Of a stretch of 64,000 bases of DNA, positions 3,560 to 16,651 are shown one piece after another; within the stretch, counting starts at the first letter, position 1; the number at the start of each line of letters is the position of its first letter. The DNA comes from Gemmatimonadota bacterium (GTDB lineage Bacteria; Gemmatimonadota; Gemmatimonadetes; Gemmatimonadales; GWC2-71-9): the NCBI GenBank assembly GCA_039591795.1, contig JBDHCY010000001.1, forward strand, positions 10,887 to 74,886, written 5' to 3'. The notes under the pieces are model-generated. The model had not been told where the DNA came from and ran no database searches. It was given only the letters and a program-made list of their open reading frames with translations. Both the position numbers and the translations under genes were made by a program.

Positions 3560-4120
3560 ATGGACATAGCCGAGAAGCAGGCGGCCTTCGAGCGTGAGGC
3601 ACTGATTCACCTCGATGTGCTCTACCGCGTCGCCGTGCGACTCACGGGCTCGGCTGCGGATGCCGACGATCTCGTTCAGGAGGCGATCCTCCGCGCGTTT
3701 CGGGCATGGGACCAATACCGACCGGGAACAAATGCCCGGGCCTGGTTGCTCACTATTCTGCGGAACCAGTTCGTCAACGACTACCGCCGCCGCCGGCGGC
3801 ACCAGGAGGCGGCAGAGGAAATCGCCGGAGACCCGAACGCGGTCTTCATGAGCGCCCGTGAGGTGGACCCGACCGGAGCGTTCTTCGACCGCATCGTAGA
3901 CGCGAAGGTACTCGAGGCGATTGACAGGTTACCCGAGGAGTTCCGCGAAGCAGTCGTATTGGTCGACGTCGAGGGGCTCTCGTACGACGAGGCAACACAG
4001 GTGCTCGAGGTCCCGATCGGAACGCTCAAATCTCGTCTGTTCCGCGCTCGTCGCCGCTTGCAGCGCGAGCTTTACGACTACGCCGTGGAAATGGGCTACA
4101 TCAAGGCATCGGCTCCATGA
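3560..4120 (+). CDS. ECF-type RNA polymerase sigma-70 family factor
   Basis: 186 aa. Region 2 (DLVQEAILRAFRAW) and a region 4 HTH (LSYDEATQVLEVPIGTLKSRLFRAR) are present. Confidence 0.85.
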   Translation: MDIAEKQAAFEREALIHLDVLYRVAVRLTGSAADADDLVQEAILRAFRAWDQYRPGTNARAWLLTILRNQFVNDYRRRRRHQEAAEEIAGDPNAVFMSAREVDPTGAFFDRIVDAKVLEAIDRLPEEFREAVVLVDVEGLSYDEATQVLEVPIGTLKSRLFRARRRLQRELYDYAVEMGYIKASAP

Positions 4121-4380
4121 GCAGCTCTCCGCGTGACATCAGCTGCCACGAAGCCCTGGAGCACCTCTACGAGTACCTCGACCACGAGCTCACTCCAGAG
4201 GTGGAGGCGGAGGTCCGCGGACACCTCGTGGCCTGCGTAGTCTGCACGAGCCGCTTCGGCTTCGAGGAAGTGTTCCTCAAGTTCCTCGAAGCGAAGAGCC
4301 AGGCTCAGGGCGCCTCGCCAGAACTCAGGCGACGCATCCTCGAGCGGCTCTTCCTCGACCCCGACGTGCCCGAGCGGTGA
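4117..4380 (+). CDS. zinc-binding anti-sigma factor (ZAS, RsrA-like)
   Basis: 87 aa. The ATG overlaps the sigma stop (ATGA). Cys10 plus H36-x3-C40-x2-C43 form an HxxxCxxC motif. Confidence 0.75.
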   Translation: MSSSPRDISCHEALEHLYEYLDHELTPEVEAEVRGHLVACVVCTSRFGFEEVFLKFLEAKSQAQGASPELRRRILERLFLDPDVPER

Positions 4381-5159
4381 TCGACCCCGCGGCGGCAGTG
4401 CTCCTCGCCGCTGGGGTCTCCGCCGTCGCCGTGCTGGCTCGCTGGCTCACAGTTGGCGGGGCCATGGCGGCCTCTTTGGTCGGCGCTGCCGTGCTCTTCG
4501 GTGCCGGCTGGGGTGGCGGTGCCATGCTCGCCACGTTCTTCGTCTCGGGGTCCCTCCTCTCTGGCATGAACGAGCGGGCGCGCGCCACGCGGACGGCCGA
4601 TGCGAAGACAGGCCCGCGCGACACCGTCCAAGTCCTCGCCAACGGCCTCCCGGGTGCGTTCGCCGCACTGGTCGTTCCTCCCCTGTTCCCACCCACTGTT
4701 GTCGTGGGTGGGGCGATCGCCGCCGCGGCCGCTGACACCTGGGCCACGGAAATCGGAATGGCTCTGGGGAGACGGCCCAGACTCATCACCACGCTCCAGC
4801 CCGTGCCTCCGGGCACATCGGGAGGCGTCACACTCACCGGAACGGCGGCCGCGCTGGCCGGGGCGGCCACGGTTGGCGCCATCGCGATGCCGTTTGGGCT
4901 CCCGCCACCGCTCCTTCCGATCGTGATCACGGCTGGCTTGACCGGTGCCTTGCTCGACTCATTCGCAGGCGCGATACTCCAGGGACGATTCCGGTGCGAG
5001 CGATGCAACGTCGAAACCGAGCGCCGACTACACGAATGCGGCACGTTGACGGTTCGGGTGCGCGGCCTCAGCTGGCTCACCAACGACGGCGTGAACCTTC
5101 TGGCCTCGTCTTGCGGCGCTGGATTGGCCTTCCTGTGGCTGTCGCTACGCTGGGCCTAG
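4377..5159 (+). CDS. DUF92/TMEM19-like integral membrane protein
   Basis: 260 aa. The GTG overlaps the anti-sigma stop (GTGA). Polytopic, with an AAAAADTWATEIG motif recalled from the DUF92 family. Confidence 0.65.
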   Translation: MIDPAAAVLLAAGVSAVAVLARWLTVGGAMAASLVGAAVLFGAGWGGGAMLATFFVSGSLLSGMNERARATRTADAKTGPRDTVQVLANGLPGAFAALVVPPLFPPTVVVGGAIAAAAADTWATEIGMALGRRPRLITTLQPVPPGTSGGVTLTGTAAALAGAATVGAIAMPFGLPPPLLPIVITAGLTGALLDSFAGAILQGRFRCERCNVETERRLHECGTLTVRVRGLSWLTNDGVNLLASSCGAGLAFLWLSLRWA

Positions 5160-5530
5160 CGTGCATCGGCAGCGACGGCCTCGTCGTGGAGAGCGACCGG
5201 GGAACCATCGGTGTCGGTTCGAGCCCAACGCTCGATCTGGTCGGATCGTGGCGCCACACGGTGATCGTGCAGACCGACGGCGGTGACGTTCAGTCGAGCG
5301 AGACGGCGTGGACGTTCGAGGACGACCTCGACTGTGTGCGCGTCGTCACGCTGCGCTCGGTCTCTTTCGGCGGCGTGCTCGACATCCTTCCGCGAACCTG
5401 TACCTACACGGCGAGCACCGCGTCGGTGACAATCGTCTTCACCGACGACCCGACCTCGGTCACCTTCGACGCTCGAGTCGTGCGCGACACGTTGTACCTC
5501 GACGACTTCGCTTTCGAGCGCATCCGCTAA
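5111..5530 (+). CDS. small putative lipoprotein (hypothetical)
   Basis: TTG 5111 gives MRRWIGLPVAVATLGLAC, a lipobox-type signal peptide. No recognisable domain. Both the start and whether the gene is real are uncertain. Confidence 0.4.
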   Translation: MRRWIGLPVAVATLGLACIGSDGLVVESDRGTIGVGSSPTLDLVGSWRHTVIVQTDGGDVQSSETAWTFEDDLDCVRVVTLRSVSFGGVLDILPRTCTYTASTASVTIVFTDDPTSVTFDARVVRDTLYLDDFAFERIR

Positions 5531-5532
5531 CC

Positions 5533-6723
5533 ATGCCAGTTACTCGACGATGGGATGTCGTCGTCGCGGGCGCCGGCCCCGCGGGCGCCGCCACTGCCGC
5601 ATTCCTCGCCGAAGCGGGCTGCCGCACTTTGCTCATCGACCGAGCCCGCTTCCCGCGTGAAAAGCCGTGCAGCGACTACGTGGCCCCCGGTGCCCGCTCG
5701 GTCCTCGCGAAGCTCGGAGTGCTCGGCGCGCTCGAGCAGCGCGGCGAGCCCGTGCACGGCATGGAGGTCACGTCTCCGTCCGGCACGACGCTGCGAGGGG
5801 ACTATCGGGGAGGCTCGGGGTTCGGGATGCCCCGCCGCGAGCTCGACGCGCAGCTCGTCGAGCTCGCCGTTGCCCGCGGCGCTACGCTGTGGGAGGAGAC
5901 CCGCGCAGAGGGACTCACCGTCACGCTGCGCGGGGCGCCCGCCTTGCGGGCACGTCACGCTGGCCACACTCACACCCTGAGCGCCCGGGTCGTCGTGGGC
6001 GCCGACGGGTTGCGGTCCGCGATCGCGCGCGCCCTGGGCGGGGGGACACGTGTCGGCCCACGGCGCCTGGCCCTCGTTGCGCAGATCGCCGACGTCGAGG
6101 GCCTCCACGGCGTGGGCGAGATCTTCGTCGCAGGAGGCGGCTATGTCGGAGTGGCACCGCTCCCCGGCGGAGCCGCGAACGTCGCCGTCGTGCAGCCGGC
6201 CGCGCGGGCCCACCGCGGGATGAGCGGGAGCGCGCTCTTTTGGACGGAGCTGGCCCATCATCCCGACCTGCACAGCCGTGTTCGGGATCGGCCGGTGCTC
6301 CGCGGTGTGCTGGCAACCGGTCCCTTCGGCTGGCGCAGCCAGCGAGCGGTGGGCAACGGGGTCATTCTCGTGGGAGACGCTGCCCATTTCTTCGATCCGT
6401 TGACGGGCGACGGCGTCGCCGCCGCATTGCACGGCGCGGCGCTCGCCGCGCAGGTGATTCTCCAGGCACTCGGGCGGCTCGACGTGCCGACACGGCGAGC
6501 CCTTGCACCGTACGAGACGATGCATCGGCGACTCTTCGGGGGACGCTGGTCGGCCCAGCGGCTGTTGGGCGCGGCCGTTGCACATCCCCGCCTCTTCGAC
6601 CTCGGCCTGCGGGCACTGACCCAGCGTCGGGAGCTCGGCGACCGCATCGTCCAGTTCGCCGGGAGCGTCGCCCCGGTGAGCAGTCTCTTTCAGCCCCTCG
6701 CCACCAATCCGAGGCCCGCGTGA
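5533..6723 (+). CDS. FAD-dependent oxidoreductase, geranylgeranyl reductase/UbiH-like family
   Basis: Start at ATG 5533. Dinucleotide fold DVVVAGAGPAGAATAAFLAEAG, and later GDAAHFFDPLTGDG. Confidence 0.8.
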   Translation: MPVTRRWDVVVAGAGPAGAATAAFLAEAGCRTLLIDRARFPREKPCSDYVAPGARSVLAKLGVLGALEQRGEPVHGMEVTSPSGTTLRGDYRGGSGFGMPRRELDAQLVELAVARGATLWEETRAEGLTVTLRGAPALRARHAGHTHTLSARVVVGADGLRSAIARALGGGTRVGPRRLALVAQIADVEGLHGVGEIFVAGGGYVGVAPLPGGAANVAVVQPAARAHRGMSGSALFWTELAHHPDLHSRVRDRPVLRGVLATGPFGWRSQRAVGNGVILVGDAAHFFDPLTGDGVAAALHGAALAAQVILQALGRLDVPTRRALAPYETMHRRLFGGRWSAQRLLGAAVAHPRLFDLGLRALTQRRELGDRIVQFAGSVAPVSSLFQPLATNPRPA

Positions 6724-7202
6724 CCAAGCCACCCGTTGACGCACCGAACTTCCGGCAGCTACTCGGTCGTTTCGCGACGGGCGTCGCCGTGCTCACCACT
6801 CGAGGAGTCGATGGCGAGCCGACCGGAACGACCGTGAATACCCTCACCTCAGTGTCTCTCTCTCCGCCGCTTGTGCTCATCTGCCTCGACCGGCAGCACG
6901 ACAGCCACGCCGCGTTGAGCGGAGCCGAGTGTTTCGCCCTGAACATTCTGGCGAACGACCAAGAGGAGCTGTCGCGACGGTTCGCGGCGGAGGACCGTCA
7001 CTTTCAGGGAGTTGGCTACCGGCTGAGCGATAGCGGTGTCCCGCTGCTGGACGGCGCGCTCGCCTACATCGAATGCGAGCTCGAGAAGCAAGTCGAGGCT
7101 GGCGACCACACCGTATTCTTCGGTCGGGTGGTCGGTGGGGAGGTGGCGGAGCGCCGGCCACTGCTCTACTACCGCGGCGGCTATGCGGCGCTGGCCGGGT
7201 GA
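6720..7202 (+). CDS. flavin reductase family protein
   Basis: GTG 6720 overlaps the upstream TGA (GTGA). FATGVAVLTT...TVNTLTSVSLSPPLVLICL...LYYRGGY is typical of NAD(P)H-flavin reductase domains. Confidence 0.8.
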   Translation: MTKPPVDAPNFRQLLGRFATGVAVLTTRGVDGEPTGTTVNTLTSVSLSPPLVLICLDRQHDSHAALSGAECFALNILANDQEELSRRFAAEDRHFQGVGYRLSDSGVPLLDGALAYIECELEKQVEAGDHTVFFGRVVGGEVAERRPLLYYRGGYAALAG

Positions 7203-7873
7203 TCCCCACCGAGACGCTCGATCGCGTGGATGCGCCGGCCGGGGTCGTGCGAGCGTCGTTGGCCGACATCCGTCGAGCCAATGCTCTCTTTGGCGGCCGC
7301 CGGGCGGTTATTGGCGCGTTGAAGCCGCTCTTTCGTGGCGCGGTGCCGGGAGATCGCTTGACGCTGCTGGATCTCGGAACCGGCGCCGGTGACATTCCAC
7401 GAGCGGCGGCACGTCTCGCGGCACGTTACGGCGTGCGGCTCGAGACCATCGGCGTGGAGCATCACCGCACAGCGGCAGAAATGGCCCGCACCGCAGGCGT
7501 GACCCCGCTCGTTGCCGATGTCGAGTGGCTCCCTCTTCGCACACGATCGATCGATATTGTGATCATGAGCCAGCTCCTCCACCACGCGCCACGTGAGCGC
7601 GCCGTTGCCTGGATTCGCGCCGCCGATCGGGTTGCCCGACGCGCGGTCATCATCGCGGATCTACGCCGCGCACGGCTTGCGATGTGGGGTATCTGGCTCG
7701 TCTCATTTCCACTGGGGTTCCACCCTGTGAGTCGTCGCGACGGCGTGCTGTCGATCAAGAGAGGATTCACGCCATCCGAATTGACCGCTCTCCTCGCAGA
7801 GGCCGGCATCACAGCAACCGCGTTTCCCCGGCTCGGATGGCGCGTCGTGGCGGCATGGGCGCCCGTGGCCTGA
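7199..7873 (+). CDS. class I SAM-dependent methyltransferase
   Basis: GTG 7199 overlaps the upstream stop. SAM-binding motif I LLDLGTGAGDI and a later VIMSQLLHH. Confidence 0.75.
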   Translation: MIPTETLDRVDAPAGVVRASLADIRRANALFGGRRAVIGALKPLFRGAVPGDRLTLLDLGTGAGDIPRAAARLAARYGVRLETIGVEHHRTAAEMARTAGVTPLVADVEWLPLRTRSIDIVIMSQLLHHAPRERAVAWIRAADRVARRAVIIADLRRARLAMWGIWLVSFPLGFHPVSRRDGVLSIKRGFTPSELTALLAEAGITATAFPRLGWRVVAAWAPVA

Positions 7874-8337
7874 TGCACACTGAAGATCGAGCACGCGTCG
7901 CTGCCCCACTCGACGTCGTCTTCGACATCGCGAGTGATGTCGAGCGGTGGCCCGAGATCCTCCCCCACTACCGTTGGGTACGTGTGCTCGAGCGGCACCG
8001 GGACTGGGATCTCGTCGAGATGGCTGCCTGGCGCCCGTTCGGACCGCTCAACTACCCGACGTGGTGGGTGTCGGAGATGCGCCGACTGCCCGATGAGCAC
8101 CGGGTGCGCTATCGGCACGTGCGCGGCATCACGCGCGGGATGGACGTGGAATGGATGCTGCGATCGGCGGACGGCCACGTCGAGGTTACCGTGCTGCACG
8201 ATTGGCTCGGTCCGCGGTGGCCGGTCGTCGGCCCGCTGTTCGCCGACGCGATCGTCGGTCCGATCTTCATTCACGCTATCGCATCGCGCACGGTCGCAGG
8301 CGTCAAGCGAGTCGCCGAGGAGTGGCGTCGTGGTTGA
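7873..8337 (+). CDS. SRPBCC/START-fold protein (polyketide cyclase/dehydrase-like)
   Basis: ATG 7873 shares one nt with the upstream TGA. 154 aa. The N-terminal VVFDIASDVERWPEILPHY pattern is typical of SRPBCC proteins. Confidence 0.65.
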   Translation: MHTEDRARVAAPLDVVFDIASDVERWPEILPHYRWVRVLERHRDWDLVEMAAWRPFGPLNYPTWWVSEMRRLPDEHRVRYRHVRGITRGMDVEWMLRSADGHVEVTVLHDWLGPRWPVVGPLFADAIVGPIFIHAIASRTVAGVKRVAEEWRRG

Positions 8338-9574
8338 TCGACGGCGGGTCGCCGTCACAGGCATCGGCTGCGTCACTCCCATCGGACTGGGCGTCGAGGG
8401 TTTGTGGGACGGACTCCGCCTCAGGCGATCGGCGGTAGGTGCCATCACGCGATTCGATGCCTCGCTCTGGCGCAGTAGGATCGCGGCGGAGGTATCTGAC
8501 TTTCGACCCGCCGACCACCTCGACGCCCGCCGCGCCCGGCGACTCGACCGCTTTTCAGCGTTCGCGGTCACCGCCGCCCGATTGGCCCTCTCCGATGCGG
8601 CGGTCGACGTCGCCCGAGAGGACCGCGACCGCGTCGGGGTGATGATGGGTTCGGCATTGGGTGGGGTCGCATTCGCTGAAGAGGAAGCGGGGAAGTTCCT
8701 CTCCGACGGGCCGCGGGCGGTCAATCCCGCGCTGGCGCTCTCGGTGTTTGCTGGGGCAGCTTCGTGCAACATCGCGATCGAATTCGGCGTCACCGGGCCG
8801 AACGCCACGAACGCGATGAGCTGCGCGTCGGGTGCCATCGCCATCGGCGAGGCGTTTCGCGCGGTGCGTGATGGGGCAGCCGACGTGATGCTCGGTGGTG
8901 GGTCGGAGGCACCGCTGGCGCCGCTTTGTTTCGGATCGTTTGCCATCATCCGAGCCATGAGCACGCGAAATGACGACCCGGAGACGGCATCGCGACCGTT
9001 CGATCGCGATCGCGATGGCTTCGTGATGGCCGAGGGTGCCGCGGTCCTGGTGCTGGAGGAGTGGACTCGTGCCCAGAGCCGCGGTGCGCGGATCTACGCC
9101 GAGTTGCTCGGCTATGGCCTCACGAATGACGCGCACCACATGACCGCCCCCAGACCGGATGGCGCGCAGGCCGCTCGGGCTATGCGCATAGCACTCCAAG
9201 ATGCACGTATCGGACCGACACTCGTCGACTACCTGAATGCCCATGGCTCGTCCACGCCCCTCAACGACGCCACCGAGACGATCGCCATCAAGGAGGTGTT
9301 CGGTGAGCACACGTCTGATCTCGCTGTGAGTGGCACGAAGGGGTACTACGGACACGCGCTGGGCGCGAGTGGCGCCATCGAGGCAGCGATCTGCTCGCTC
9401 GCGCTCTCACGCGAGTGGCTTCCGCCGAGCCTCAACCTTCGGGCACCCGATCAGACCTGCGACCTCCCCTACGTCGACGGTTCGGGGCGCGACGTGCGCG
9501 TTCAGCATGCGCTCTCGAACTCGTTCGGCTTCGGCGGTGTCAACGCGTCACTTGTCTTTCGCGGCTCCGCTTAG
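8330..9574 (+). CDS. beta-ketoacyl synthase, FabF/KAS II family (stand-alone)
   Basis: GTG 8330 overlaps the upstream gene by 8 nt. VAVTGIGCVTPIG, active-site Cys in NAMSCASGAIAIGEA, His motifs NAHGSSTP and GHALGASG, and C-terminal SNSFGFGGVNASLVF. Confidence 0.85.
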   Translation: MVDRRRVAVTGIGCVTPIGLGVEGLWDGLRLRRSAVGAITRFDASLWRSRIAAEVSDFRPADHLDARRARRLDRFSAFAVTAARLALSDAAVDVAREDRDRVGVMMGSALGGVAFAEEEAGKFLSDGPRAVNPALALSVFAGAASCNIAIEFGVTGPNATNAMSCASGAIAIGEAFRAVRDGAADVMLGGGSEAPLAPLCFGSFAIIRAMSTRNDDPETASRPFDRDRDGFVMAEGAAVLVLEEWTRAQSRGARIYAELLGYGLTNDAHHMTAPRPDGAQAARAMRIALQDARIGPTLVDYLNAHGSSTPLNDATETIAIKEVFGEHTSDLAVSGTKGYYGHALGASGAIEAAICSLALSREWLPPSLNLRAPDQTCDLPYVDGSGRDVRVQHALSNSFGFGGVNASLVFRGSA

Positions 9575-9604: not shown

Positions 9605-10315
9605 ATGGGAGTTGGCCCAATGCGTGACTCGTTTCGTCCAGCGCTCGCAGAGTTGATCGGCACCTTCGCATTCGTGTTTGTTGGCGCGGGCGCCGTCGTG
9701 GTCGACCGAGCGACGAATGGCGGCCTCGGGCTGCTTGGCATCGCGCTCGCGCACGGCTTGGCATTCAGCGTCTTCGTGTCGGTGACGATGCCGATCTCCG
9801 GCGGACACCTCAACCCAGCGGTGTCGGTCGGCCTCTTCGCGGCAGGGAAGATCAACGGCCGCACGACCCTGATCTACGTGGCCGCGCAGCTCCTCGCCGC
9901 GCTGTTCGCCGCGCTCATGCTCCAGTGGGTGATGCCCGCCGTCCCGGCCGACGCCGTGGGGCTCGGCGTCCCGCGTCTCGCACCAACGATCACCCTGAGT
10001 TCCGGGATTGCGCTCGAGGCCACGATCACGTTCTTCCTACTCATCGTGGTCTTCGGTACTGCAGTGTCGCCATCCGCGCCGAAGATGGGTGGCTTCGGGA
10101 TCGGGCTCGCCGTCGCATGCGGGGTCTTCGTCGCCGGACCGCTAACCGGCGCAGCGATGAATCCGGCTCGAGCGTTTGGCCCGGCCGTGGTCGCGAATGT
10201 GTGGCGAGCGCATGCCGCGTTCTGGATCGGCCCTATGGTCGGGGCGCTCGCCGCGGCGGCCGTGTGGCGATTTCTCCTGCGCGAGGAGCCGGCGCGCGAG
10301 GGGCCATCGAGCTGA
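9605..10315 (+). CDS. MIP/aquaporin family channel
   Basis: 236 aa. Two NPA boxes (GGHLNPAVSVG and AMNPARAFGP) and six hydrophobic segments. Confidence 0.9.
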   Translation: MGVGPMRDSFRPALAELIGTFAFVFVGAGAVVVDRATNGGLGLLGIALAHGLAFSVFVSVTMPISGGHLNPAVSVGLFAAGKINGRTTLIYVAAQLLAALFAALMLQWVMPAVPADAVGLGVPRLAPTITLSSGIALEATITFFLLIVVFGTAVSPSAPKMGGFGIGLAVACGVFVAGPLTGAAMNPARAFGPAVVANVWRAHAAFWIGPMVGALAAAAVWRFLLREEPAREGPSS

Positions 10316-11375: not shown

Positions 11376-12071
11376 TCAGGCAAGGCCTCGCTCCTCCCGT
11401 GCCGCGCGTGTGAGCGCCAGTCCGTAGCGCTGCATCAGGAATCCGACGAGCAAGACGGCGAAGACGCCGAGGGACAGGAGCAGAGTGGTCAGCATCGTGG
11501 TGGGCAGCGACGGGCGGCCTGGCTTGAGCAGAATCGGCTCCGGATGAAGTGTCCGGAAGAGATACACGCTGATGTGAATGAAGGGGATGAGCACGAGACC
11601 AGAGATCCCCAAGACGGCGCTATAGCGGGCGCGCTGCGTTGGCTCGGGCACGGCGTTGCGGAGCAACAAGTATCCAACGAACAAGAAGAACAGGAACAGC
11701 GTCAAGGTGAGTCGTGCATCCCACGTCCACCATGTGCCCCAGACGGGCTTTCCCCAGAGCGGGCCCGTCGTGAGCATCACCACAGAGAACGCCACGCCGA
11801 CCTCCGCCGCGGATGCCGAGAACAGGTCGAGACGTTCATCTTTGAGCCAGAGATAGAGCAAGCTGATGACGCCGACGATGCCGAACGCGAGTAGCGCGCA
11901 AAACGCTGCCGGCACGTGCACGTAGAAAATCTTCTGCGCGGGCCCTTGGAAGCGCTCCAGCGGAGTGAAGGCCAGCGCGCGCACGTATACCCCGGCGAGC
12001 GCCACGAACCCCACCGTCGTCACGGCGAGGCCCAGGTTGGACAAGCGAGTTGCGCGCTCCAGCGGAGTCAT
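11376..12071 (-). CDS. ccmC: cytochrome c biogenesis heme exporter CcmC
   Basis: 231 aa with the Trp-rich WWD motif WGKPVWGTWWTWDARLT. Confidence 0.9.
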   Translation of the reverse strand: MTPLERATRLSNLGLAVTTVGFVALAGVYVRALAFTPLERFQGPAQKIFYVHVPAAFCALLAFGIVGVISLLYLWLKDERLDLFSASAAEVGVAFSVVMLTTGPLWGKPVWGTWWTWDARLTLTLFLFFLFVGYLLLRNAVPEPTQRARYSAVLGISGLVLIPFIHISVYLFRTLHPEPILLKPGRPSLPTTMLTTLLLSLGVFAVLLVGFLMQRYGLALTRAAREERGLA

Positions 12072-12748
12072 TCGTCGAGGGTAGCCTCGAACAGGAGGAT
12101 GCCAAGGATGACGAACGCGATATCGTAGGCCGCGAGCAATCTAAGCCACCCCGCTACCTCACTCAAGGGACGCCCGGCGAACAGTCGCTCGGTCATCTGG
12201 ACCGCCGCGGTTATGGGCGGCATGAGGAACGGCACGAGTAGCACTGGCAGCATGAGCTCGGCGAACCGCGTACGCGCCGTCATGGCGGAGAACAAGGTGC
12301 CGACGGCCACGAAGGCAATGGTCGCGAGGATGATGACGCCCGCCAACGGCACCAGAGGACTCACGACGTCGACATTGAAGAACACGCCGAAGAGGGGCAC
12401 CGTGATGGCCTCGAGCATCAACACGAACGCGAGGTTCGCAAACACCTTGCCCAGGTACAGGCTCGTGCGGTTCGCGGGGGCGAGGAGAATGCCGTCGAGG
12501 GCCCTGGTCTCCAGCTCGATCTGAAACGCCCGGTTCAGGCCGAGCATCCCGGCGAAGGTGAAGGTGACCCACAGCACGCTCGGCGCGAGCGCTCGGTCGC
12601 TGATCTCGGTCGGATCCCGCGCGAAGTAGAAGATGACGAGGACCAGCGCGGAAAACACGAGTGCAGAGATGGCGGTCGTACGTGCGCGGAATTCGAGGAG
12701 GAGATCTTTCCGGGCGATCGTGATCGCATCACGGAGCGTCTCACGCAT
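12068..12748 (-). CDS. ccmB: heme exporter permease CcmB
   Basis: ORF trimmed to ATG 12748 (MRETLRDAITIARKDLLLEFR). Six hydrophobic segments. The stop overlaps the ccmC start (ATGA). Confidence 0.8.
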   Translation of the reverse strand: MRETLRDAITIARKDLLLEFRARTTAISALVFSALVLVIFYFARDPTEISDRALAPSVLWVTFTFAGMLGLNRAFQIELETRALDGILLAPANRTSLYLGKVFANLAFVLMLEAITVPLFGVFFNVDVVSPLVPLAGVIILATIAFVAVGTLFSAMTARTRFAELMLPVLLVPFLMPPITAAVQMTERLFAGRPLSEVAGWLRLLAAYDIAFVILGILLFEATLDE

Positions 12749-13445
12749 CGGTGCCACCCGTCCGATAGTGCGAGCTGACGGCCGCGGCATCGAACGCGCT
12801 GCGCGGGCCGTACGCCACGAAGCGACCGGCGCGCTGGACGGCGACGCGGCTCGCGAGCTCAAGCCCCTCCTCCACATTGTGTGTCACCTGCACCACCGCG
12901 TGGCCCTCCCGAATCTCCGTGGTGAGGAGCTCGCGCAGGCCACGCGCCGCGTCGACGTCCAGCCCAGTAAACGGCTCGTCAAGTAGGAGGAGCCCCGGTT
13001 CGTGGAGCAGCGACCTCGCGATCGCCGTGCGCTGGACCATCCCCCGCGACAGGGTGCGAACGGGCGCGTGGATCCGGTCGCCCAGTCCAACCCGCTCCAA
13101 CGCGGCGCGGGCGGCGCTCGTCGGACGATCCACCCCGTGCAGCCGAGCGACGAAGATCAGGTTCTCGGAAGCCGTGAGCGCGTCGTAGAGAAGCGATTGG
13201 TGGCTGATCCAGCCGATGCGCCGGCGCTGGGCCGCGTTACGGCCGTCGTATCGCGCCCCGTCGACGTAGACCGTGCCCCGTTGCGGTCGGAGTAGTCCGG
13301 CCAGTGTGCGGAGAAGCGTGCTCTTGCCGGCGCCGTTGGGCCCGAACACCGTGAGTGACTCACCGGCATCGAGCGAGAAGGAGACTCCGTCTAGCGCGAC
13401 GATGGGGCCGAACGCCCGGTAGAGGCCCTCAGCTCGCAGCATCAA
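12741..13445 (-). CDS. ccmA: heme exporter ABC ATPase CcmA
   Basis: Walker A GPNGAGKST, signature LSRGMVQR and Walker B LLLLDEP. Sits at the head of ccmBCD. Confidence 0.8.
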   Translation of the reverse strand: MMLRAEGLYRAFGPIVALDGVSFSLDAGESLTVFGPNGAGKSTLLRTLAGLLRPQRGTVYVDGARYDGRNAAQRRRIGWISHQSLLYDALTASENLIFVARLHGVDRPTSAARAALERVGLGDRIHAPVRTLSRGMVQRTAIARSLLHEPGLLLLDEPFTGLDVDAARGLRELLTTEIREGHAVVQVTHNVEEGLELASRVAVQRAGRFVAYGPRSAFDAAAVSSHYRTGGTDA

Positions 13446-13797
13446 TGAGTTGGCGGAGGGCGGTGAGCTCGAAAGGCTTTACGAGATAGCCGCTGTGCCC
13501 GAGATTGAGGACGCTCATCAGCGGCTCCATCGACAAGTACGCGCTCGTGATCACGACCGGGAGGTCGGGCAGCCGCGCACGGATCCTCTGCATGAGCTCC
13601 ACTCCGTCGGTATCGGGCAAGCGAAGGTCAAGAACGACGATGTCGGGCACGAACCGATCGAGCGCGTCGAGCGCCTCGGCGCCGGACGACGCAAACGACA
13701 TCACATAGCGATCAGCAAAGAATCGTCCGTAGCTCAGGCAGAGCGACGGTTCGTCCTCGACGAAGAGGACGCGTCGTTGTTCAGTCGGGGCGGCCAT
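13429..13797 (-). CDS. single-domain response regulator (CheY-like receiver)
   Basis: Trimmed to MAAPTEQRRVLFVEDE. DIVVLDLRLPDTDG contains the phospho-acceptor Asp context. The 3' end overlaps the ccmA start by 17 nt. Confidence 0.85.
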   Translation of the reverse strand: MAAPTEQRRVLFVEDEPSLCLSYGRFFADRYVMSFASSGAEALDALDRFVPDIVVLDLRLPDTDGVELMQRIRARLPDLPVVITSAYLSMEPLMSVLNLGHSGYLVKPFELTALRQLIDAAS

Positions 13798-13834
13798 CGC
13801 GGCGGAAATATACCGCCCGGGCCGGGGAGTGGGA

Positions 13835-14161
13835 TCAGGGCCCGTTCCCGTTCCGGTCGGCCTCCAGCTCGAAGAGCTCATCCATCTTCGTGAGCACCAG
13901 TAGTACCCTCAGCTCAGCGAGCGCGCCCCGCAGGCGGACCACCTGCCGGCGAGCCGCCGCCCGGCGCTGAATGAGCATGAGGGTGGTGAGTCCCGCGCTA
14001 TCCACGTTTCGCGTACCGCGCAGATCGAGTATGAGGCGTCCTTCCCCTTCGGGTAGCTCCCCGAGCGCCTCGAGCGCGGCGCGGCGGAACGCCACTCTGC
14101 TCTCGAGTCCAAGCTCGTCGGGGGCCGTCAGAACGCGTTGCGTAGCGACGTGGCTGGCCAT
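13835..14161 (-). CDS. STAS-domain protein (anti-sigma-factor antagonist-like)
   Basis: Trimmed to MASHVATQ. LILDLRGTRNVDSAGLTTLMLIQRRA matches the STAS/SpoIIAA pattern around the conserved Ser. Confidence 0.65.
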   Translation of the reverse strand: MASHVATQRVLTAPDELGLESRVAFRRAALEALGELPEGEGRLILDLRGTRNVDSAGLTTLMLIQRRAAARRQVVRLRGALAELRVLLVLTKMDELFELEADRNGNGP

Positions 14162-14389
14162 CCGCTCTACTCCCTCCCGGCGGTCGCCGCCGGATCGCAC
14201 CATTCACCCGCCAACCGAGTGCCAGCGTCGTCAAGTAGCTGCATCACAATGAGTTGGAGGCATCACGTGCCGCGCTCGATGGTCGATCCGACCGCAGAAA
14301 ACCCGAGCCGGTGGCCGAATGCCAGAGGCCGAAACAGCGCAGGGCGCGAACTCACGTCCGCGCCCCACTCACCAGGCCGGCGACTCTGC

Positions 14390-14596
14390 CTACAGCTTCA
14401 CGACGTCTGCTGCCTGCAGCCCCTTGGGTCCCTCTTTGACTTCGAACTCCACCTGATCGTTCTCCTTGAGGGACCGGAAGCCGTCCGCAGAGATGGCCGA
14501 GTAGTGGACAAAGACGTCGGGGCCGCCTTCGCGCTCGATGAAGCCAAACCCCTTAGCGTCGTTGAACCACTTGACCCGGCCGGTGATACGGGACAT
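14390..14596 (-). CDS. cold-shock protein (CspA family)
   Basis: 68 aa, [35 protein letters not shown], with RNP1/RNP2 motifs. A GGAGGA SD lies upstream. Confidence 0.95.
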
Positions 14597-14704
14597 ACGT
14601 TGTTCCTCCAACTGCGTGAAAAGTGAGCCACGACGAGGCGCTAAAATGGGGCGCCCCCGTCGGGAGCGCAATAGCCACAAGGCCCTAGCCCGAGGTCTCT
14701 GTTC

Positions 14705-16651
14705 ATGACTGATCGTCTCGACACTCTCCTCGACGAACAGCGTCGGTTCCTCCCCTCTCCAGAGTTCCGCGCGGCCGCACATGTCGCGAGTGATGACATC
14801 TACGATCGAGCAACGAACGATCCCGAAGCGTTCTGGGCGGAGCAGGCCCGGGAGCTGACGTGGTTCGCCCCGTGGCGCCAAGTCCTCGACTGGCAGCCGC
14901 CGTATGCGAAGTGGTTCGTGGGCGGGAAGCTCAATGCGTCAGTGAACTGCCTCGACCGCCACGTCAGCTCGGCCCGCAGAAACAAGGCCGCGCTCATTTG
15001 GGAAGGAGAGCCCGGCGATCGGCGCACGATGACGTACTGGGACCTGTATCGCGAGGTCAACCGTTTCGCGTCGGTCCTCAAGCGCCTCGGTGTGCAGCGC
15101 GGCGATCGGGTTGCGATCTACATGCCGCTCATTCCTGAAGTAGTGGTCGCGATGCTCGCATGCGCGCGTATCGGTGCACCCCACTCGGTTGTCTTTGGCG
15201 GCTTCTCGGCGCAGGCCCTGCGCGATCGCATCAACGACGCCAACGCAAAGGTGCTGATCACGGCCGACGGTGGATACCGGCGTGGGCAAGTCGTGCCTCT
15301 CAAGCACAACGCCGACGAGGCCGTGAGCGGATCTCCGAGCATCACGGATGTCGTCGTCGTGCGCAGGGTGGGTGATGGCATAGACGTCGAGATGAGCGAC
15401 GGCCGCGACCACTGGTGGCACGAGCTCATGGAGGACGCTTCAGACTTCACCGAGCCCGAGCCGATGGACGCCGAAGACAACCTCTTCATTCTGTATACCT
15501 CCGGAACCACCGGCACGCCCAAAGGGATTGTCCATACGACCGGCGGATACCTCACGCAAGTCACCGCAACATCGAAGTATGTGTTCGATCTCAAGGACGA
15601 AGACGTGTTTTGGTGCACCGCCGACGTGGGATGGGTGACGGGCCACTCCTACCTCGTGTATGGCCCTCTGGCACTTGGCGTCACCGAAGTGATGTACGAG
15701 GGCGCTCCCGATTGGCCTGCCCGCGATCGGCTGTGGTCGCTCTGCGCAGAGCACGGCGTGACGGTGTTCTACACAGCGCCGACGGCAATCAGGGCATTCA
15801 TGAAATGGGGATCCGATCACCCCGCGCGACACGATCTCTCACGCCTCCGGCTCCTCGGCACCGTCGGCGAGCCGATCAACCCCGAGGCATGGACCTGGTA
15901 CCACGAACATATTGGAGGCGGCCGCTGCCCGATCGTCGATACGTGGTGGCAGACCGAGACCGGGGGCATCATGATCACCCCATTGCCGGGGGTAACCGCG
16001 ACGAAGCCCGGCTCCGCGACTCAAGCGTTTCCGGGCGTAACGGCCGACCTACTCGACGGCGAAGGGAACCGGGTCGAGGTGGGGGGTGGATACCTCGCCA
16101 TTACGCGCCCGTGGCCGGGCATGTTGCGCACCATCTGGGGAGATGACGAGCGGTTCCGCGAGCAGTATTGGTCAAAATGGAAAGACGTCTATTTCCCCGG
16201 CGACGGGGCGAAGCGAGACGCGGACGGCTACTTCTGGATCTTGGGACGGGTGGACGACGTACTGAATGTGGCGGGCCACCGCATCGGTACGATGGAGGTT
16301 GAGAGCGCACTCGTCGAGCACCAGGCGGTAGCGGAGGCCGCAGTCGTGGGTCGGACTCACGACATCAAGGGCGAGGCGGTTGCCGCGTTCGTCACGCTGG
16401 TGGACGGCTACGATTCGAGCGATGCCCTCGTCGGCGAACTCCGCGAGCAGGTGACCAAGTCGATCGGCGCGATCGCTCGACCCGACGACATCTTCTTCGC
16501 CGCCGACCTGCCGAAGACGCGAAGCGGCAAGATCATGCGACGACTCCTCCGCGACATCGCCGAGGGGCGCACGCTGGGCGACACGACCACCCTGGCCGAC
16601 CCTGCGGTGGTGGCGCGACTCAAAGACATGTACGAAGAAAAGGAGAGCTGA
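14705..16651 (+). CDS. acs: acetyl-CoA synthetase (AMP-forming)
   Basis: 648 aa. AMP-binding motif [19 protein letters not shown], and C-terminal [14 protein letters not shown]. Confidence 0.95.

What the first reader, a model, noticed from the sequence alone, without database searches (positions are those of the whole stretch)
5533..9574. Orphan five-gene cluster: flavoprotein, flavin reductase, methyltransferase, SRPBCC, stand-alone FabF-type ketosynthase
All four junctions are start/stop overlaps: GTGA at 6720, GTGA at 7199, TGATG at 7871-7875, and 8 nt at 8330-8337. This argues for a single coupled unit. The KS keeps its Cys-His-His residues. Nothing in this cluster or its immediate flanks encodes an ACP, acyltransferase, KR/DH/ER or type III PKS. 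The set mixes two hallmarks. KS plus a cyclase/dehydrase-like SRPBCC is typical of aromatic polyketide chemistry. A UbiH-like flavin hydroxylase with its own reductase, a SAM methyltransferase and a Coq10-like START fold are typical of quinone or phenolic-lipid tailoring. I cannot map it to a named pathway. The inference is synthesis or tailoring of a small hydrophobic alkyl-aromatic or quinone-like lipid.
Basis: partly seen in the sequence, partly recalled or inferred. Interest (0 to 1): 0.6.

Follow-up and report, generated by a model that had tools for sequence, protein, structure and literature searches.

The report
Conserved ketosynthase–cyclase lipid-tailoring gene cassette
The five overlapping genes are real and belong to an uncharacterised cassette, found in several bacterial phyla, that pairs a special fatty-acid-type ketosynthase with a polyketide-cyclase-like protein and probably makes a modified, possibly phenolic, membrane lipid.

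Summary
Five co-directional genes (5533-9574) have exactly the stated start/stop overlaps, and no ACP, AT, KR/DH/ER or CLF lies nearby. The organism is a Gemmatimonadota MAG.

The cluster is not an orphan. In 55 complete Gemmatimonadota genome loci, 37 carry all five genes. The SRPBCC-KS pair is invariant (76/76). The same SRPBCC-KS core recurs in Chloroflexota, Armatimonadota and unassigned metagenome contigs (58/61), usually with the flavoprotein and methyltransferase in shuffled order. MT-SRPBCC and FAD-SRPBCC fusion proteins exist.

- **KS:** FabF-like, but in a clade of its own, with shared signature substitutions.
- **SRPBCC:** closest to type II PKS aromatase/cyclases, not Coq10.
- **Flavoprotein:** geranylgeranyl-reductase family, not a halogenase and not UbiH. 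It needs an external reductant.

Best reading (confidence about 0.4): a CLF-less, ACP-less mini-PKS that borrows the fatty-acid synthase ACP and makes an alkyl-aromatic or pyrone lipid, which is then hydroxylated and methylated. The main rival is a new fatty-acyl modification module. I found no characterised match. Still untested: the product, and whether these genomes hold a second, housekeeping fabF.

The parts
5533..6723 (+). G1: geranylgeranyl-reductase-family flavoprotein that depends on an external reductant
   Evidence: PF01494 at 103 bits. TIGR02032 at 151.5 bits against a 158.8 cutoff. Best PDB matches are carrier-protein-dependent FADH2 halogenases (Mpy16, ChlB4, PltA) and T. acidophilum GGR 3oz2. 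The Cys in FPRxKxC(G/A/S)(E/D) is invariant across all cassette copies. The halogenase Lys and the WxWxIP motif are absent.
6720..7202 (+). G2: NAD(P)H:flavin reductase (HpaC/StyB/HsaB type)
   Evidence: PF01613 at 151 bits. NCBIfam hits to HsaB, FerA and StyB are all below cutoff. Present in 51 of 55 complete Gemmatimonadota loci. A ferredoxin gene stands in its place in several loci from other lineages.
7199..7873 (+). G3: class I SAM methyltransferase, PRK06202-like
   Evidence: Methyltransf_11/25. NF004851 at 115.9 bits against a 243 cutoff. Cassette MTs from other phyla score 132-166 bits on the same model. Absent from 16 of 55 complete Gemmatimonadota loci. An MT-SRPBCC fusion exists, P0128.
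7873..8337 (+). G4: aromatase/cyclase-type SRPBCC protein
   Evidence: PF03364 at 46 bits. The family profile hits BexL at 1.4e-21, then WhiE-ORFVI, TcmN and ZhuI, but Coq10-like 1t17 only at 0.003. The AF2 model has pLDDT 91. Foldseek top hits are ZhuI, TcmN and WhiE, with TM 0.72-0.86. Invariant residues are W26, H32, Y33, R34, M50, R54, W65, H82, H109 and T140.
8330..9574 (+). G5: FabF-like ketosynthase of a cassette-specific clade
   Evidence: Cys-His-His intact. TIGR03150 at 523.5 bits (cutoff 493.75); true FabFs score 642-677 and cassette KSs of other phyla score 457-522. It shares 50-61% identity with cassette KSs of other phyla and 40-50% with housekeeping FabFs. It forms a separate NJ clade with 16 signature positions. 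It always follows the SRPBCC gene.
3560..4120 (+). ECF sigma factor (context; conserved upstream in Gemmatimonadota only)
   Evidence: Sigma70_r2 and r4_2. Found upstream in 31 of 47 Gemmatimonadota loci with enough upstream sequence.
4117..4380 (+). zf-HC2 anti-sigma factor (context)
   Evidence: PF13490. ATGA overlap with the sigma gene. Present in L001, L002 and others.
4377..5159 (+). DUF92 integral membrane protein (context)
   Evidence: PF01940 at 214 bits. TIGR00297 is below cutoff. GTGA overlap with the anti-sigma gene. Found upstream in 24 of 47 Gemmatimonadota loci.
5111..5530 (+). ORF-X: small conserved lipoprotein (start codon uncertain; context)
   Evidence: Signal peptide with lipobox LGLAC. 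Homologs sit directly upstream of G1 in L016, L024, L029, L049, L058, L065 and L069. No Pfam or NCBIfam hit.
9605..10315 (+). MIP-family channel (context; downstream in most Gemmatimonadota loci)
   Evidence: PF00230 at 167 bits. Present downstream in 58 of 71 Gemmatimonadota loci. Not seen in other phyla.

Best explanation
The five genes are one co-translated operon segment. Its core is a widely conserved, uncharacterised cassette.

Shown:
- A distinct clade of FabF-like ketosynthase is always preceded by an aromatase/cyclase-type SRPBCC gene, usually with start/stop overlap.
- Most genomes add a GGR-family flavoprotein that needs an outside reductant. Here that is a flavin reductase; elsewhere it is a ferredoxin.
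- Many genomes add a PRK06202-like SAM methyltransferase.
- No ACP, CLF, acyltransferase or reductive FAS/PKS gene accompanies the cassette anywhere.

Inferred mechanism: a mini type-II-PKS-like system that borrows the fatty-acid synthase.
1. The KS takes an acyl-ACP from fatty-acid synthesis and condenses it with malonyl-ACP, once or a few times, without reduction.
2. The SRPBCC captures the beta-keto or poly-beta-keto acyl-ACP and cyclises or dehydrates it to an alkyl-pyrone or alkyl-resorcinol type head group.
3. The flavoprotein, using reduced flavin from G2, modifies it, most likely by hydroxylation.
4. The methyltransferase methylates the result.

The product would be a small hydrophobic phenolic or quinone-like lipid for the cell envelope.
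For: - **Operon.** Four overlapping junctions.
- **Conservation in Gemmatimonadota.** 37 of 55 complete loci carry all five genes, and the KS follows the SRPBCC in 76 of 76.
- **Other phyla.** The cassette occurs in a Chloroflexia MAG, a Thermomicrobiaceae MAG, an Armatimonadota MAG and unassigned contigs, with shuffled gene order. In 80 metagenome loci the KS is adjacent in 58 of 61 with room for it.
- **Fusions.** MT-SRPBCC and FAD-SRPBCC proteins exist. The first parallels TcmN, which PDB depositors name a multifunctional cyclase-dehydratase-3-O-methyltransferase.
- **SRPBCC.** Its nearest relatives by profile and by structure are type II PKS ARO/CYCs. Its invariant Y33, H82, H109, W26, M90 and W94 align with TcmN Y35, R82, Q110, W28, M91 and W95; W65 aligns with TcmN W63/W65 (off by one in the printed alignment). 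That these TcmN positions line the pocket is from my own knowledge of the TcmN structure.
- **KS.** It forms a clade apart from housekeeping FabFs, with shared substitutions next to the catalytic Cys and in the pocket loop.
- **Order of dependency.** SRPBCC = KS > FAD > MT. This fits 'build, hydroxylate, then methylate'.
- **MT displacement.** One lineage (L113, L158) carries a COMT-type O-methyltransferase next to the pair, and no PRK06202-like MT was detected in those loci.
- **Exporters.** Lipid-type exporters often lie next to the cassette: MMPL, MacB-type ABC with AttH, and RND.
Against: - The KS is much closer to elongating FabFs than to KS-alpha: 418 bits to Synechocystis FabF against 304 to actinorhodin KS.
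- To my knowledge, no CLF-less FabF-type homodimer has been shown to make aromatic polyketides.
- There is no ACP, thioesterase or other release enzyme.
- TcmN's essential Arg69 is not conserved in the SRPBCC family.
- The flavoprotein keeps the Cys typical of C=C reductases (GGR), not a hydroxylase signature.
- The cassette sits in a stable, core-genome-like neighbourhood in Gemmatimonadota, and its KS is far more conserved than its partners (73% against 41-52% identity). That looks more like primary lipid metabolism than a secondary-metabolite cluster.
- No product is known. No cultured-strain chemistry was linked.
Confidence: 0.4

Rival explanations
1. A new fatty-acyl modification module inside type II fatty-acid synthesis. 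The SRPBCC would act as a dehydratase/isomerase on an ACP-bound intermediate. The dedicated KS would elongate the unusual product. This would be analogous to the FabA-FabB, FabM-FabF and FabN-FabO pairs, as I recall them. The GGR-type flavoprotein and the MT would then introduce or process a double bond or a methyl branch. The product would be an unsaturated or mid-chain-branched fatty acid.
For: - The KS is FabF-like and straddles the FabF equivalog cutoff.
- No ACP, AT or CLF accompanies it, so it must work with the host FAS.
- The KS is strongly conserved and sits in a stable syntenic location in Gemmatimonadota.
- SRPBCC+KS occurs alone in 4 of 23 complete metagenome loci.
- G1 keeps the GGR Cys and receives reductant from a flavin reductase or a ferredoxin, as a C=C reductase would.
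- The cassette occurs in Thermomicrobiaceae and Chloroflexota. From my own recollection, these lineages are known for 12-methyl-branched C18 acids. I did not test this here.
Against: - No SRPBCC protein is known to act as an acyl-ACP dehydratase/isomerase.
- The SRPBCC pocket positions are rich in invariant His, Tyr and Arg, as in poly-beta-keto binders.
- The flavoprotein is often present without the MT (14 of 55 complete Gemmatimonadota loci; also FAD-SRPBCC-KS loci in the metagenome set). This contradicts a 'methylate, then reduce' scheme.
- The MT is UbiE/PRK06202-like, not Cfa-like.
- One lineage has a COMT-type O-methyltransferase next to the pair and no PRK06202-like MT detected.
Confidence: 0.3
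2. The KS is simply the genome's housekeeping fabF. It happens to lie in an operon with an isoprenoid-quinone tailoring set: a MenJ-like side-chain reductase, a UbiE/MenG-like methyltransferase and a Coq10-like quinone-binding protein.
For: - The KS passes TIGR03150, and all its best PDB hits are FabFs.
- G1 hits the MenJ, GGR and Ubi-hydroxylase models, and the MTs hit the UbiE/MenG models, though weakly.
- PF03364 also contains Coq10.
- A DUF92 membrane protein lies upstream. From memory, this family includes a phytyl-phosphate kinase.
- The KS is much more conserved than its neighbours.
Against: - The SRPBCC-KS adjacency holds across phyla despite shuffling of the other genes.
- Cassette KSs share 16 signature positions and cluster apart from FabFs of three phyla.
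- They score 120-200 bits below true FabFs, and half fall under the cutoff.
- The SRPBCC matches ARO/CYCs far better than Coq10-like 1t17.
- All MenJ, UbiE and UbiH scores are far below their cutoffs.
Confidence: 0.1
3. The genes share no function. They are a neutral gene-order relic that happens to be packed tightly.
For: Other, clearly unrelated neighbours (M24 peptidase, MIP, Ccm genes) are also syntenic within Gemmatimonadota.
Against: - The four cassette families co-occur in at least three named phyla in different orders.
- They are fused pairwise in some proteins.
- The Gemmatimonadota-only neighbours do not travel with them.
Confidence: 0.02

Closest known systems
Type II (aromatic) polyketide synthase: minimal PKS plus ARO/CYC (TcmN, ZhuI, WhiE-ORFVI, BexL)
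   Same: A discrete FabF-derived KS is genetically coupled to a monodomain helix-grip ARO/CYC. Flavoprotein and SAM-methyltransferase tailoring enzymes are present. A cyclase-MT fusion occurs, as in TcmN.
   Different: There is no chain-length factor, no dedicated ACP and no MCAT. The KS is FabF-like (48% identity to FabFs), not KS-alpha-like. TcmN Arg69 is not conserved. The hosts are Gemmatimonadota, Chloroflexota and Armatimonadota rather than actinomycetes. The cassette sits in a core-genome-like location.
Housekeeping FabF (beta-ketoacyl-ACP synthase II, TIGR03150)
   Same: Same fold and length, Cys-His-His triad, and basic ACP-docking residues largely retained. The window protein scores just above the model cutoff.
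   Different: It scores 120-150 bits below bona fide FabFs and forms a separate clade. Its signatures are GSALGG in place of GxGIGG, a remodelled PFFxPMMI pocket loop, and SC(A/S)SG in place of ACAxG. It is never next to acpP or fab genes and always next to the SRPBCC gene.
Phenolic-lipid operons built on type III PKS (S. griseus srsABC; alkylresorcinol/alkylquinone)
   Same: The proposed logic is the same: build an alkyl-aromatic from a fatty acyl starter, then hydroxylate with a flavoprotein and methylate.
   Different: There is no type III PKS. SrsB is an isoprenylcysteine-carboxyl-MT-type enzyme (PMC6669644), not a class I PRK06202-like MT. This is an analogy, not a homology.
Dehydratase/isomerase + dedicated KS pairs of unsaturated fatty-acid synthesis (FabA-FabB, FabM-FabF, FabN-FabO; named from my own knowledge)
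   Same: A dedicated elongating KS paralog is genetically paired with a small enzyme that acts on ACP-bound intermediates, with no ACP of its own.
   Different: The partner here has an SRPBCC helix-grip fold, not a hot-dog or crotonase fold. Flavoprotein and MT partners are unknown in those systems.
Geranylgeranyl reductase family (archaeal GGR, ChlP, MenJ) and carrier-protein-dependent FADH2 halogenases (PltA, Mpy16, CndH)
   Same: G1 shares the fold, the GDAAxxxDPxxGxG motif, the GGR Cys, and a dependence on an outside reductant (flavin reductase or ferredoxin).
   Different: G1 is below the TIGR02032 cutoff. The YxWxFP motif is degenerate (GGYVGVAP). The halogenase Lys and WxWxIP are absent. 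The substrate is unknown.

Membership tests
Housekeeping FabF (TIGR03150 equivalog) | Model score above the curated cutoff and comparable to bona fide FabFs | tested here: inconclusive
   The window KS scores 523.5 bits against a 493.75 cutoff. Synechocystis, B. subtilis and T. thermophilus FabFs score 642-677. Cassette KSs from other phyla score 457-522, and 4 of 7 fall below the cutoff.
Housekeeping FabF (TIGR03150 equivalog) | Cys-His-His catalytic triad | tested here: met
   C in MSCASG, H in NAHGSST and H in YYGHALG align with the FabF triad.
Housekeeping FabF (TIGR03150 equivalog) | Groups with housekeeping FabFs rather than in a separate clade | tested here: not met
   The NJ tree and the identity matrix separate the two groups. 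Cassette KSs share 50-61% identity across phyla but 40-50% with FabFs, which share 54-59% among themselves. There are 16 signature columns. Caveat: only four reference FabFs were used, and none came from the same phyla.
Housekeeping FabF (TIGR03150 equivalog) | It is the genome's elongating KS, i.e. the only FabF/FabB, typically near acpP and fab genes | not testable with these tools
   No acpP or fab genes were found within the 1.95 Mb of window and fetched loci. Whole genomes could not be read, so a second fabF elsewhere is neither shown nor excluded.
Type II PKS minimal system | KS-alpha/CLF heterodimer (a second, Cys-less KS gene adjacent) | tested here: not met
   tblastn with three reference FabFs found no KS in the window other than G5; its hits in the early loci were not inspected for extra copies. 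The tblastn gene maps show one KS per locus.
Type II PKS minimal system | Dedicated ACP gene | tested here: not met
   tblastn and blastp with E. coli AcpP found nothing at E < 0.01 in the window or in 172 loci. The 68-aa ORF after the KS in L090 has no NCBIfam hit (Pfam was not searched).
Type II PKS aromatase/cyclase (TcmN/ZhuI/WhiE type SRPBCC) | Helix-grip fold with closest sequence and structure similarity to ARO/CYCs | tested here: met
   Profile hits: BexL 1.4e-21, WhiE 1.8e-12, TcmN 4.6e-9, ZhuI 7.6e-9. Foldseek top 8 hits are all ZhuI, TcmN or WhiE, with TM 0.72-0.86.
Type II PKS aromatase/cyclase (TcmN/ZhuI/WhiE type SRPBCC) | Catalytic pocket residues (TcmN Tyr35, Arg69; ZhuI Arg66, His109, Asp146; residue roles from my own knowledge) | tested here: inconclusive
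   Y33 aligns with TcmN Tyr35. H82 aligns with Arg82. H109 aligns with Gln110, the position I take to be ZhuI His109. No conserved residue aligns with Arg69. R34 and R54 are invariant, but their placement was not verified on coordinates.
Coq10/RatA-type START proteins | Closest similarity to Coq10-like proteins | tested here: not met
   Coq10-like CC1736 (1t17) matches only at E = 0.0028 with the family profile and ranks 41st by Foldseek. JGI's automatic 'RatA toxin' names are generic.
Geranylgeranyl reductase family (TIGR02032) | Score above the cutoff | tested here: not met
   151.5 bits against 158.8 for G1. Cassette homologs score 124-151. This is borderline.
Geranylgeranyl reductase family (TIGR02032) | Conserved Cys near the flavin (T. 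acidophilum GGR Cys47) and the YxWxFP motif | tested here: inconclusive
   The Cys is invariant in all 12 cassette flavoproteins aligned. The motif is degenerate: GGYVGVAP here, and variable elsewhere.
Flavin-dependent halogenases | Catalytic Lys and WxWxIP motif | tested here: not met
   Where Mpy16 has 'FPKKFGA', G1 has 'EPVHGM'. There is no WxWxIP.
UbiH/UbiF/Coq6 hydroxylases (TIGR01988) | Score above the cutoff | tested here: not met
   84.5 bits against 224.65.
PRK06202 methyltransferase equivalog (NF004851) | Score above the cutoff | tested here: not met
   115.9 bits for G3 and 132-166 bits for cassette MTs of other phyla, against a cutoff of 243. This is the nearest model, but the cassette MTs are a distinct subfamily.
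srsABC-type phenolic-lipid operon | Type III PKS plus ICMT-type methyltransferase | tested here: not met
   No type III PKS was found in the flanks. SrsB is described as an isoprenylcysteine carboxyl MT, whereas G3 is a class I MT.

The most novel reading that the evidence does not exclude
The SRPBCC+KS pair defines a new, widespread class of minimal polyketide or lipid synthase. A FabF-derived homodimeric KS works without a chain-length factor and without its own ACP. It is coupled one-to-one to an ARO/CYC-type enzyme and hijacks the housekeeping ACP. It would supply soil and hot-spring phyla (Gemmatimonadota, Chloroflexota, Armatimonadota) with a previously unrecognised phenolic or quinone-like membrane lipid. 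It could also represent an evolutionary intermediate between FabF and type II PKS.
Probability: 0.3. Interest if true: 0.8.

Novelty: new variant of a known kind. Interest (0 to 1): 0.62.

Why it matters
Gemmatimonadota, Chloroflexota and Armatimonadota are abundant, poorly cultured soil and thermal phyla, and their lipid and small-molecule chemistry is largely unknown.

A compact cassette that is near-ubiquitous in the Gemmatimonadota sampled and that recurs across phyla is a well-defined target. Two to five genes can be expressed in E. coli.

- If the polyketide reading holds, it shows that a FabF-type KS with an ARO/CYC partner can make aromatic lipids without a CLF or its own ACP. That bears on how type II PKSs arose from fatty-acid synthases.
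- If the fatty-acid reading holds, it reveals a new route to unusual acyl chains. Such chains could serve as environmental biomarkers.

Either way, current annotation pipelines call this KS 'FabF' and the SRPBCC 'RatA toxin' or 'aromatase'. Those names hide the cassette.

Tried and rejected
1. **Frame error.** My first Pfam, NCBIfam and homolog searches for G4 used 7874-8334, one base out of frame. They returned nothing and cost one homolog search. I redid them with 7873.
2. **Failed look-ups.** Exact look-ups of the window KS and of P0001 found no contig.
3. **Alignments too diverse.** The alignment it accepted returned only Gemmatimonadota among the best 80. Cross-phylum context therefore came from a profile search plus contig look-ups and a metagenome scan.
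4. **Plasmids.** There was no plasmid match to G4.
5. **Literature.** Searches for the gene combination, for SRPBCC plus FabF, for type II PKS in these phyla, and for long-chain diols in Gemmatimonas found nothing relevant.
6. **Halogenase reading of G1.** Rejected: no catalytic Lys and no WxWxIP.
7. **srsABC homology.** Rejected: SrsB is ICMT-type.
8. **BioC-like role for the MT.** Rejected: BioC scores of 31-46 bits are far below cutoff.
9. **'MT makes a methylene, the flavoprotein reduces it' (tuberculostearate-like).** Disfavoured, because the flavoprotein commonly occurs without the MT.
10. **Long-chain 1,2-diol idea (KS, decarboxylation, hydroxylation).** Considered from memory of Thermomicrobium lipids. 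I could not find any supporting data.
11. **Unavailable or empty.** The afdb50 fold library was not available. There are no tRNA or Rfam features in the window.

Full report
**What is in the window**

The window has 64-69% G+C. Between 5533 and 9574 the + strand carries five ORFs:
- G1, 5533-6723, 396 aa
- G2, 6720-7202, 160 aa
- G3, 7199-7873, 224 aa
- G4, 7873-8337, 154 aa
- G5, 8330-9574, 414 aa

They are GTGA at 6720, GTGA at 7199, TGATG at 7871-7875, and an 8-nt overlap at 8330-8337.

Domain searches give:
- FAD_binding_3 for G1
- Flavin_Reduct for G2
- Methyltransf_11/25 for G3
- ketoacyl-synt N and C domains for G5
- Polyketide_cyc PF03364 for G4

My first G4 searches used a start one base out of frame. 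They must be ignored.

The tight packing starts earlier than the finding says. The upstream genes are:
- an ECF sigma factor, 3560-4120
- a zf-HC2 anti-sigma factor, 4117-4380
- a DUF92 membrane protein, 4377-5159
- a small lipoprotein ORF that ends at 5530

They precede G1 with overlaps or a 2-nt gap. A MIP channel starts 30 nt after the KS. The flanks hold no ACP, acyltransferase, KR, DH, ER, second KS or type III PKS.

**Source organism and conservation within the phylum**

The KS has 100%-identical database entries on an 83.6-kb contig. It also has hundreds of 69-83% identical relatives named Gemmatimonadaceae or Gemmatimonadales.

A 1.3-Mb Gemmatimonadota contig (L001) and a 731-kb one (L002) carry the same genes in the same order. 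Identity to L001 is 41% for G1, 48% for G2, 49% for G3, 52% for G4 and 73% for the KS.

I scanned one genome per species with an SRPBCC alignment. The best 80 are all Gemmatimonadota, including Longimicrobiales.

Among the 55 loci with complete flanks:

| Architecture | Loci |
|---|---|
| FAD-FRed-MT-SRPBCC-KS | 37 |
| MT missing | 14 |
| Flavin reductase missing | 2 |
| FAD-SRPBCC-KS only | 2 |

The KS follows the SRPBCC gene in 76 of 76 loci that have room for it.

**Conservation beyond the phylum**

An exhaustive HMMER search with G4 found 625 cluster representatives at 50% identity. Among them are an MT-SRPBCC fusion (P0128) and a FAD-SRPBCC fusion (P0264).

A profile of the distant members retrieved proteins named Chloroflexia, Thermomicrobiaceae, Chloroflexota and Armatimonadota.

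Seven contexts outside Gemmatimonadota all have the KS directly after the SRPBCC gene:

| Locus | Source | Gene order |
|---|---|---|
| L085 | unassigned | MT-SRPBCC-KS |
| L086 | unassigned | ferredoxin-MT-FAD-SRPBCC-KS-ABC-FtsX-AttH |
| L087 | Armatimonadota | MT-FAD-SRPBCC-KS |
| L088/L089 | unassigned | MT-SRPBCC-KS-FAD |
| L090 | unassigned | MT-FAD-SRPBCC-KS |
| L091 | Chloroflexia | SRPBCC-KS-TetR-MMPL |
| L092 | Thermomicrobiaceae | MT-FAD-SRPBCC-KS |

A metagenome scan added 80 loci. Most are not Gemmatimonadota: their KSs are 51-60% identical to the window KS, and G+C ranges from 0.49 to 0.76.
- The KS is adjacent in 58 of 61 loci with room for it.
- Of 23 complete loci, 17 carry both MT and FAD, in five different orders. 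Four carry SRPBCC-KS alone.
- Five of these metagenome loci have a ferredoxin gene upstream and no flavin reductase.

All cassette MTs hit the same NCBIfam model, PRK06202, at 116-166 bits (cutoff 243). All cassette flavoproteins hit TIGR02032 at 124-151 bits (cutoff 158.8). The partners are therefore orthologous across phyla.

No ACP-like ORF exists in the 1.95 Mb of window and fetched loci.

The order of 'coreness' is SRPBCC = KS > flavoprotein > MT > flavin reductase or ferredoxin.

**The ketosynthase**

By sequence it is FabF-like. Its best PDB hits are Synechocystis, B. subtilis and T. thermophilus FabF at 405-418 bits. Actinorhodin KS-alpha scores 304 bits. The Cys-His-His triad is intact.

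It is not a typical FabF:
- Three true FabFs score 642-677 bits on TIGR03150. The window KS scores 523.5, and cassette KSs from other phyla score 457-522. These values straddle the 493.75 cutoff.
- Cassette KSs from different phyla are 50-61% identical to each other but only 40-50% identical to the reference FabFs. The reference FabFs are 54-59% identical across phyla.
- A neighbour-joining tree separates the two groups.
- Sixteen alignment columns are fixed differently in the two groups. Examples are GSALGG for GxGIGG, a remodelled PFFxPMMIxNMA loop, Ser instead of Ala before the catalytic Cys, HMTAP for HITAP, and HGSST for HGTST.

This is a dedicated paralogous clade that travels with the SRPBCC gene. 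I could not read whole genomes. Whether a second, canonical fabF exists in these organisms is therefore inferred, not shown.

**The SRPBCC protein**

The family profile matches type II PKS aromatase/cyclases best:

| PDB match | E-value |
|---|---|
| BexL | 1.4e-21 |
| WhiE-ORFVI | 1.8e-12 |
| TcmN | 4.6e-9 |
| ZhuI | 7.6e-9 |
| Coq10-like CC1736 (1t17) | 0.003 |

An AlphaFold model (pLDDT 91) is a helix-grip fold. Its top Foldseek hits in the PDB are ZhuI, TcmN and WhiE-ORFVI, with TM 0.72-0.86.

The family has an unusually polar set of invariant residues: W26, H32, Y33, R34, M50, R54, W65, H82, H109 and T140. In the HMM alignment Y33, H82, H109, W26, M90 and W94 fall on TcmN positions Tyr35, Arg82, Gln110, Trp28, Met91 and Trp95. 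W65 falls on Trp63/Trp65, off by one in the printed alignment. From the TcmN structure as I know it, these positions line the pocket. TcmN's Arg69 has no conserved counterpart.

This looks like an enzyme for a polar, oxygen-rich, ACP-tethered chain. It does not look like a passive lipid binder.

**The flavoprotein, reductase and methyltransferase**

G1's best PDB matches are the carrier-protein-dependent FADH2 halogenases Mpy16, ChlB4, PltA and CndH, and T. acidophilum geranylgeranyl reductase.

It lacks the halogenase Lys and the WxWxIP motif. It keeps, invariantly in all cassette copies, the Cys that aligns with GGR Cys47. The GGR YxWxFP motif is degenerate. Scores against the UbiH, MenJ and other equivalog models are far below cutoff.

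G2 is an HpaC/StyB/HsaB-type flavin reductase. A ferredoxin stands in its place in other lineages. Both facts indicate that G1 needs an external reductant. I could not decide whether G1 hydroxylates or reduces.

G3 is a class I SAM methyltransferase. It is nearest to PRK06202 and more distantly to UbiE/MenG and BioC.

**Mechanism**

Shown:
- The genes form an operon.
- The cassette is conserved across phyla.
- The KS belongs to a dedicated clade.
- The SRPBCC is of the ARO/CYC type.
- The cassette depends on host ACP and malonyl-ACP, because no carrier or loading genes accompany it.

Inferred, confidence about 0.4:
1. The KS condenses an acyl-ACP from fatty-acid synthesis with malonyl-ACP without subsequent reduction.
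2. The coupled SRPBCC captures and cyclises or dehydrates the beta-keto chain to a pyrone- or resorcinol-type head group.
3. The flavoprotein then modifies it, probably by hydroxylation.
4. The MT methylates it.

Evidence for this reading:
- The ARO/CYC affinity of the SRPBCC.
- The TcmN-like cyclase-MT fusion.
- The dependency order, in which the flavoprotein occurs without the MT but rarely the reverse. This fits 'hydroxylate, then methylate'.
- A COMT-type O-methyltransferase next to the pair in one lineage, where no PRK06202-like MT was detected.
- Lipid-type exporters frequently lie nearby.

Evidence against:
- The KS is FabF-like.
- There is no CLF and no release enzyme.
- G1 carries the GGR-type Cys.
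- In Gemmatimonadota the cassette behaves like part of the core genome.

The main rival (about 0.3) is a new fatty-acyl modification module. It would be analogous to the FabA-FabB-type pairs and would yield unsaturated or branched chains. A 'housekeeping fabF plus quinone tailoring' reading (about 0.1) is weakened by the cross-phylum KS clade and by the ARO/CYC affinity of the SRPBCC.

**Comparison with known systems and novelty**

No curated NCBIfam equivalog covers G1, G3 or G4. Automatic names in public data are 'FabF', 'RatA toxin', 'aromatase' or 'SRPBCC family protein'.

Full-text searches found no paper that treats this gene combination.

The S. griseus srsABC phenolic-lipid operon is a functional analogy only. 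It uses a type III PKS and an ICMT-type methyltransferase.

I classify the cassette as a new variant of a known kind: type II PKS/FAS-like chemistry with an unprecedented minimal composition. Its product is unknown.

Noticed in passing
window 3560-5530: An ECF sigma factor, a zf-HC2 anti-sigma factor, a DUF92 membrane protein and a small lipoprotein (lipobox LGLAC) lie directly upstream of G1, with overlapping or near-abutting junctions. The array is conserved in many Gemmatimonadales loci but not in other phyla. It may place the cassette under envelope-stress control.
   Followed up: partly
window 9605-10315: A MIP-family channel gene follows the KS by 30 nt. It is downstream in 58 of 71 Gemmatimonadota loci. 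It is absent from cassette loci of other phyla.
   Followed up: partly
P0128, P0264, P0250 (representative proteins): Fusion proteins exist: methyltransferase-SRPBCC (403 aa) and GGR-type flavoprotein-SRPBCC (520 aa). P0250 (306 aa) has a P450 N-terminal fragment followed by the SRPBCC and may be a partial gene call.
   Followed up: partly
L086 7016-7270; L102, L105, L147, L157, L159: In several loci outside Gemmatimonadota a small 4Fe-4S ferredoxin gene precedes the MT and FAD genes where Gemmatimonadota have a flavin reductase. This suggests alternative electron donors for the flavoprotein.
   Followed up: partly
L113 7708-8907 (-) and L158 7729-8784 (-): In one lineage the SRPBCC-KS pair has no PRK06202-like MT or GGR-type flavoprotein nearby. 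A convergent COMT-type O-methyltransferase (PF00891 plus the dimerisation domain) lies directly downstream.
   Followed up: partly
L120 832-1272; L149 2929-3369: Two metagenome loci carry an SRPBCC family member with no adjacent ketosynthase, although several kb of downstream sequence are available. They are the only clear exceptions to the pairing.
   Followed up: no
L086 10679-14951; L091 2059-4962; L088 174-4385 and 5371-6979: Exporter genes often flank the cassette in other phyla: a MacB-type ABC transporter with an AttH lipocalin-like protein, TetR with MMPL, and RND/OEP with an ABC-2 transporter. An ABC ATPase family recurs in 14 loci.
   Followed up: partly
L085 10707-12167 (-); L100 7729-8757 (-): Radical SAM genes (one of them B12-binding) lie convergent to the KS in two unrelated loci. 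Their significance is unknown.
   Followed up: no
window 11376-16651: Cytochrome c maturation genes ccmC, ccmB and ccmA lie on the minus strand, followed by a response regulator (also minus strand) and an acetyl-CoA synthetase on the plus strand. The same neighbours appear in L002, so long-range synteny is conserved in this phylum.
   Followed up: no
window 1-64000: There are no tRNA or tmRNA genes and no Rfam family at gathering threshold anywhere in the 64-kb window.
   Followed up: yes
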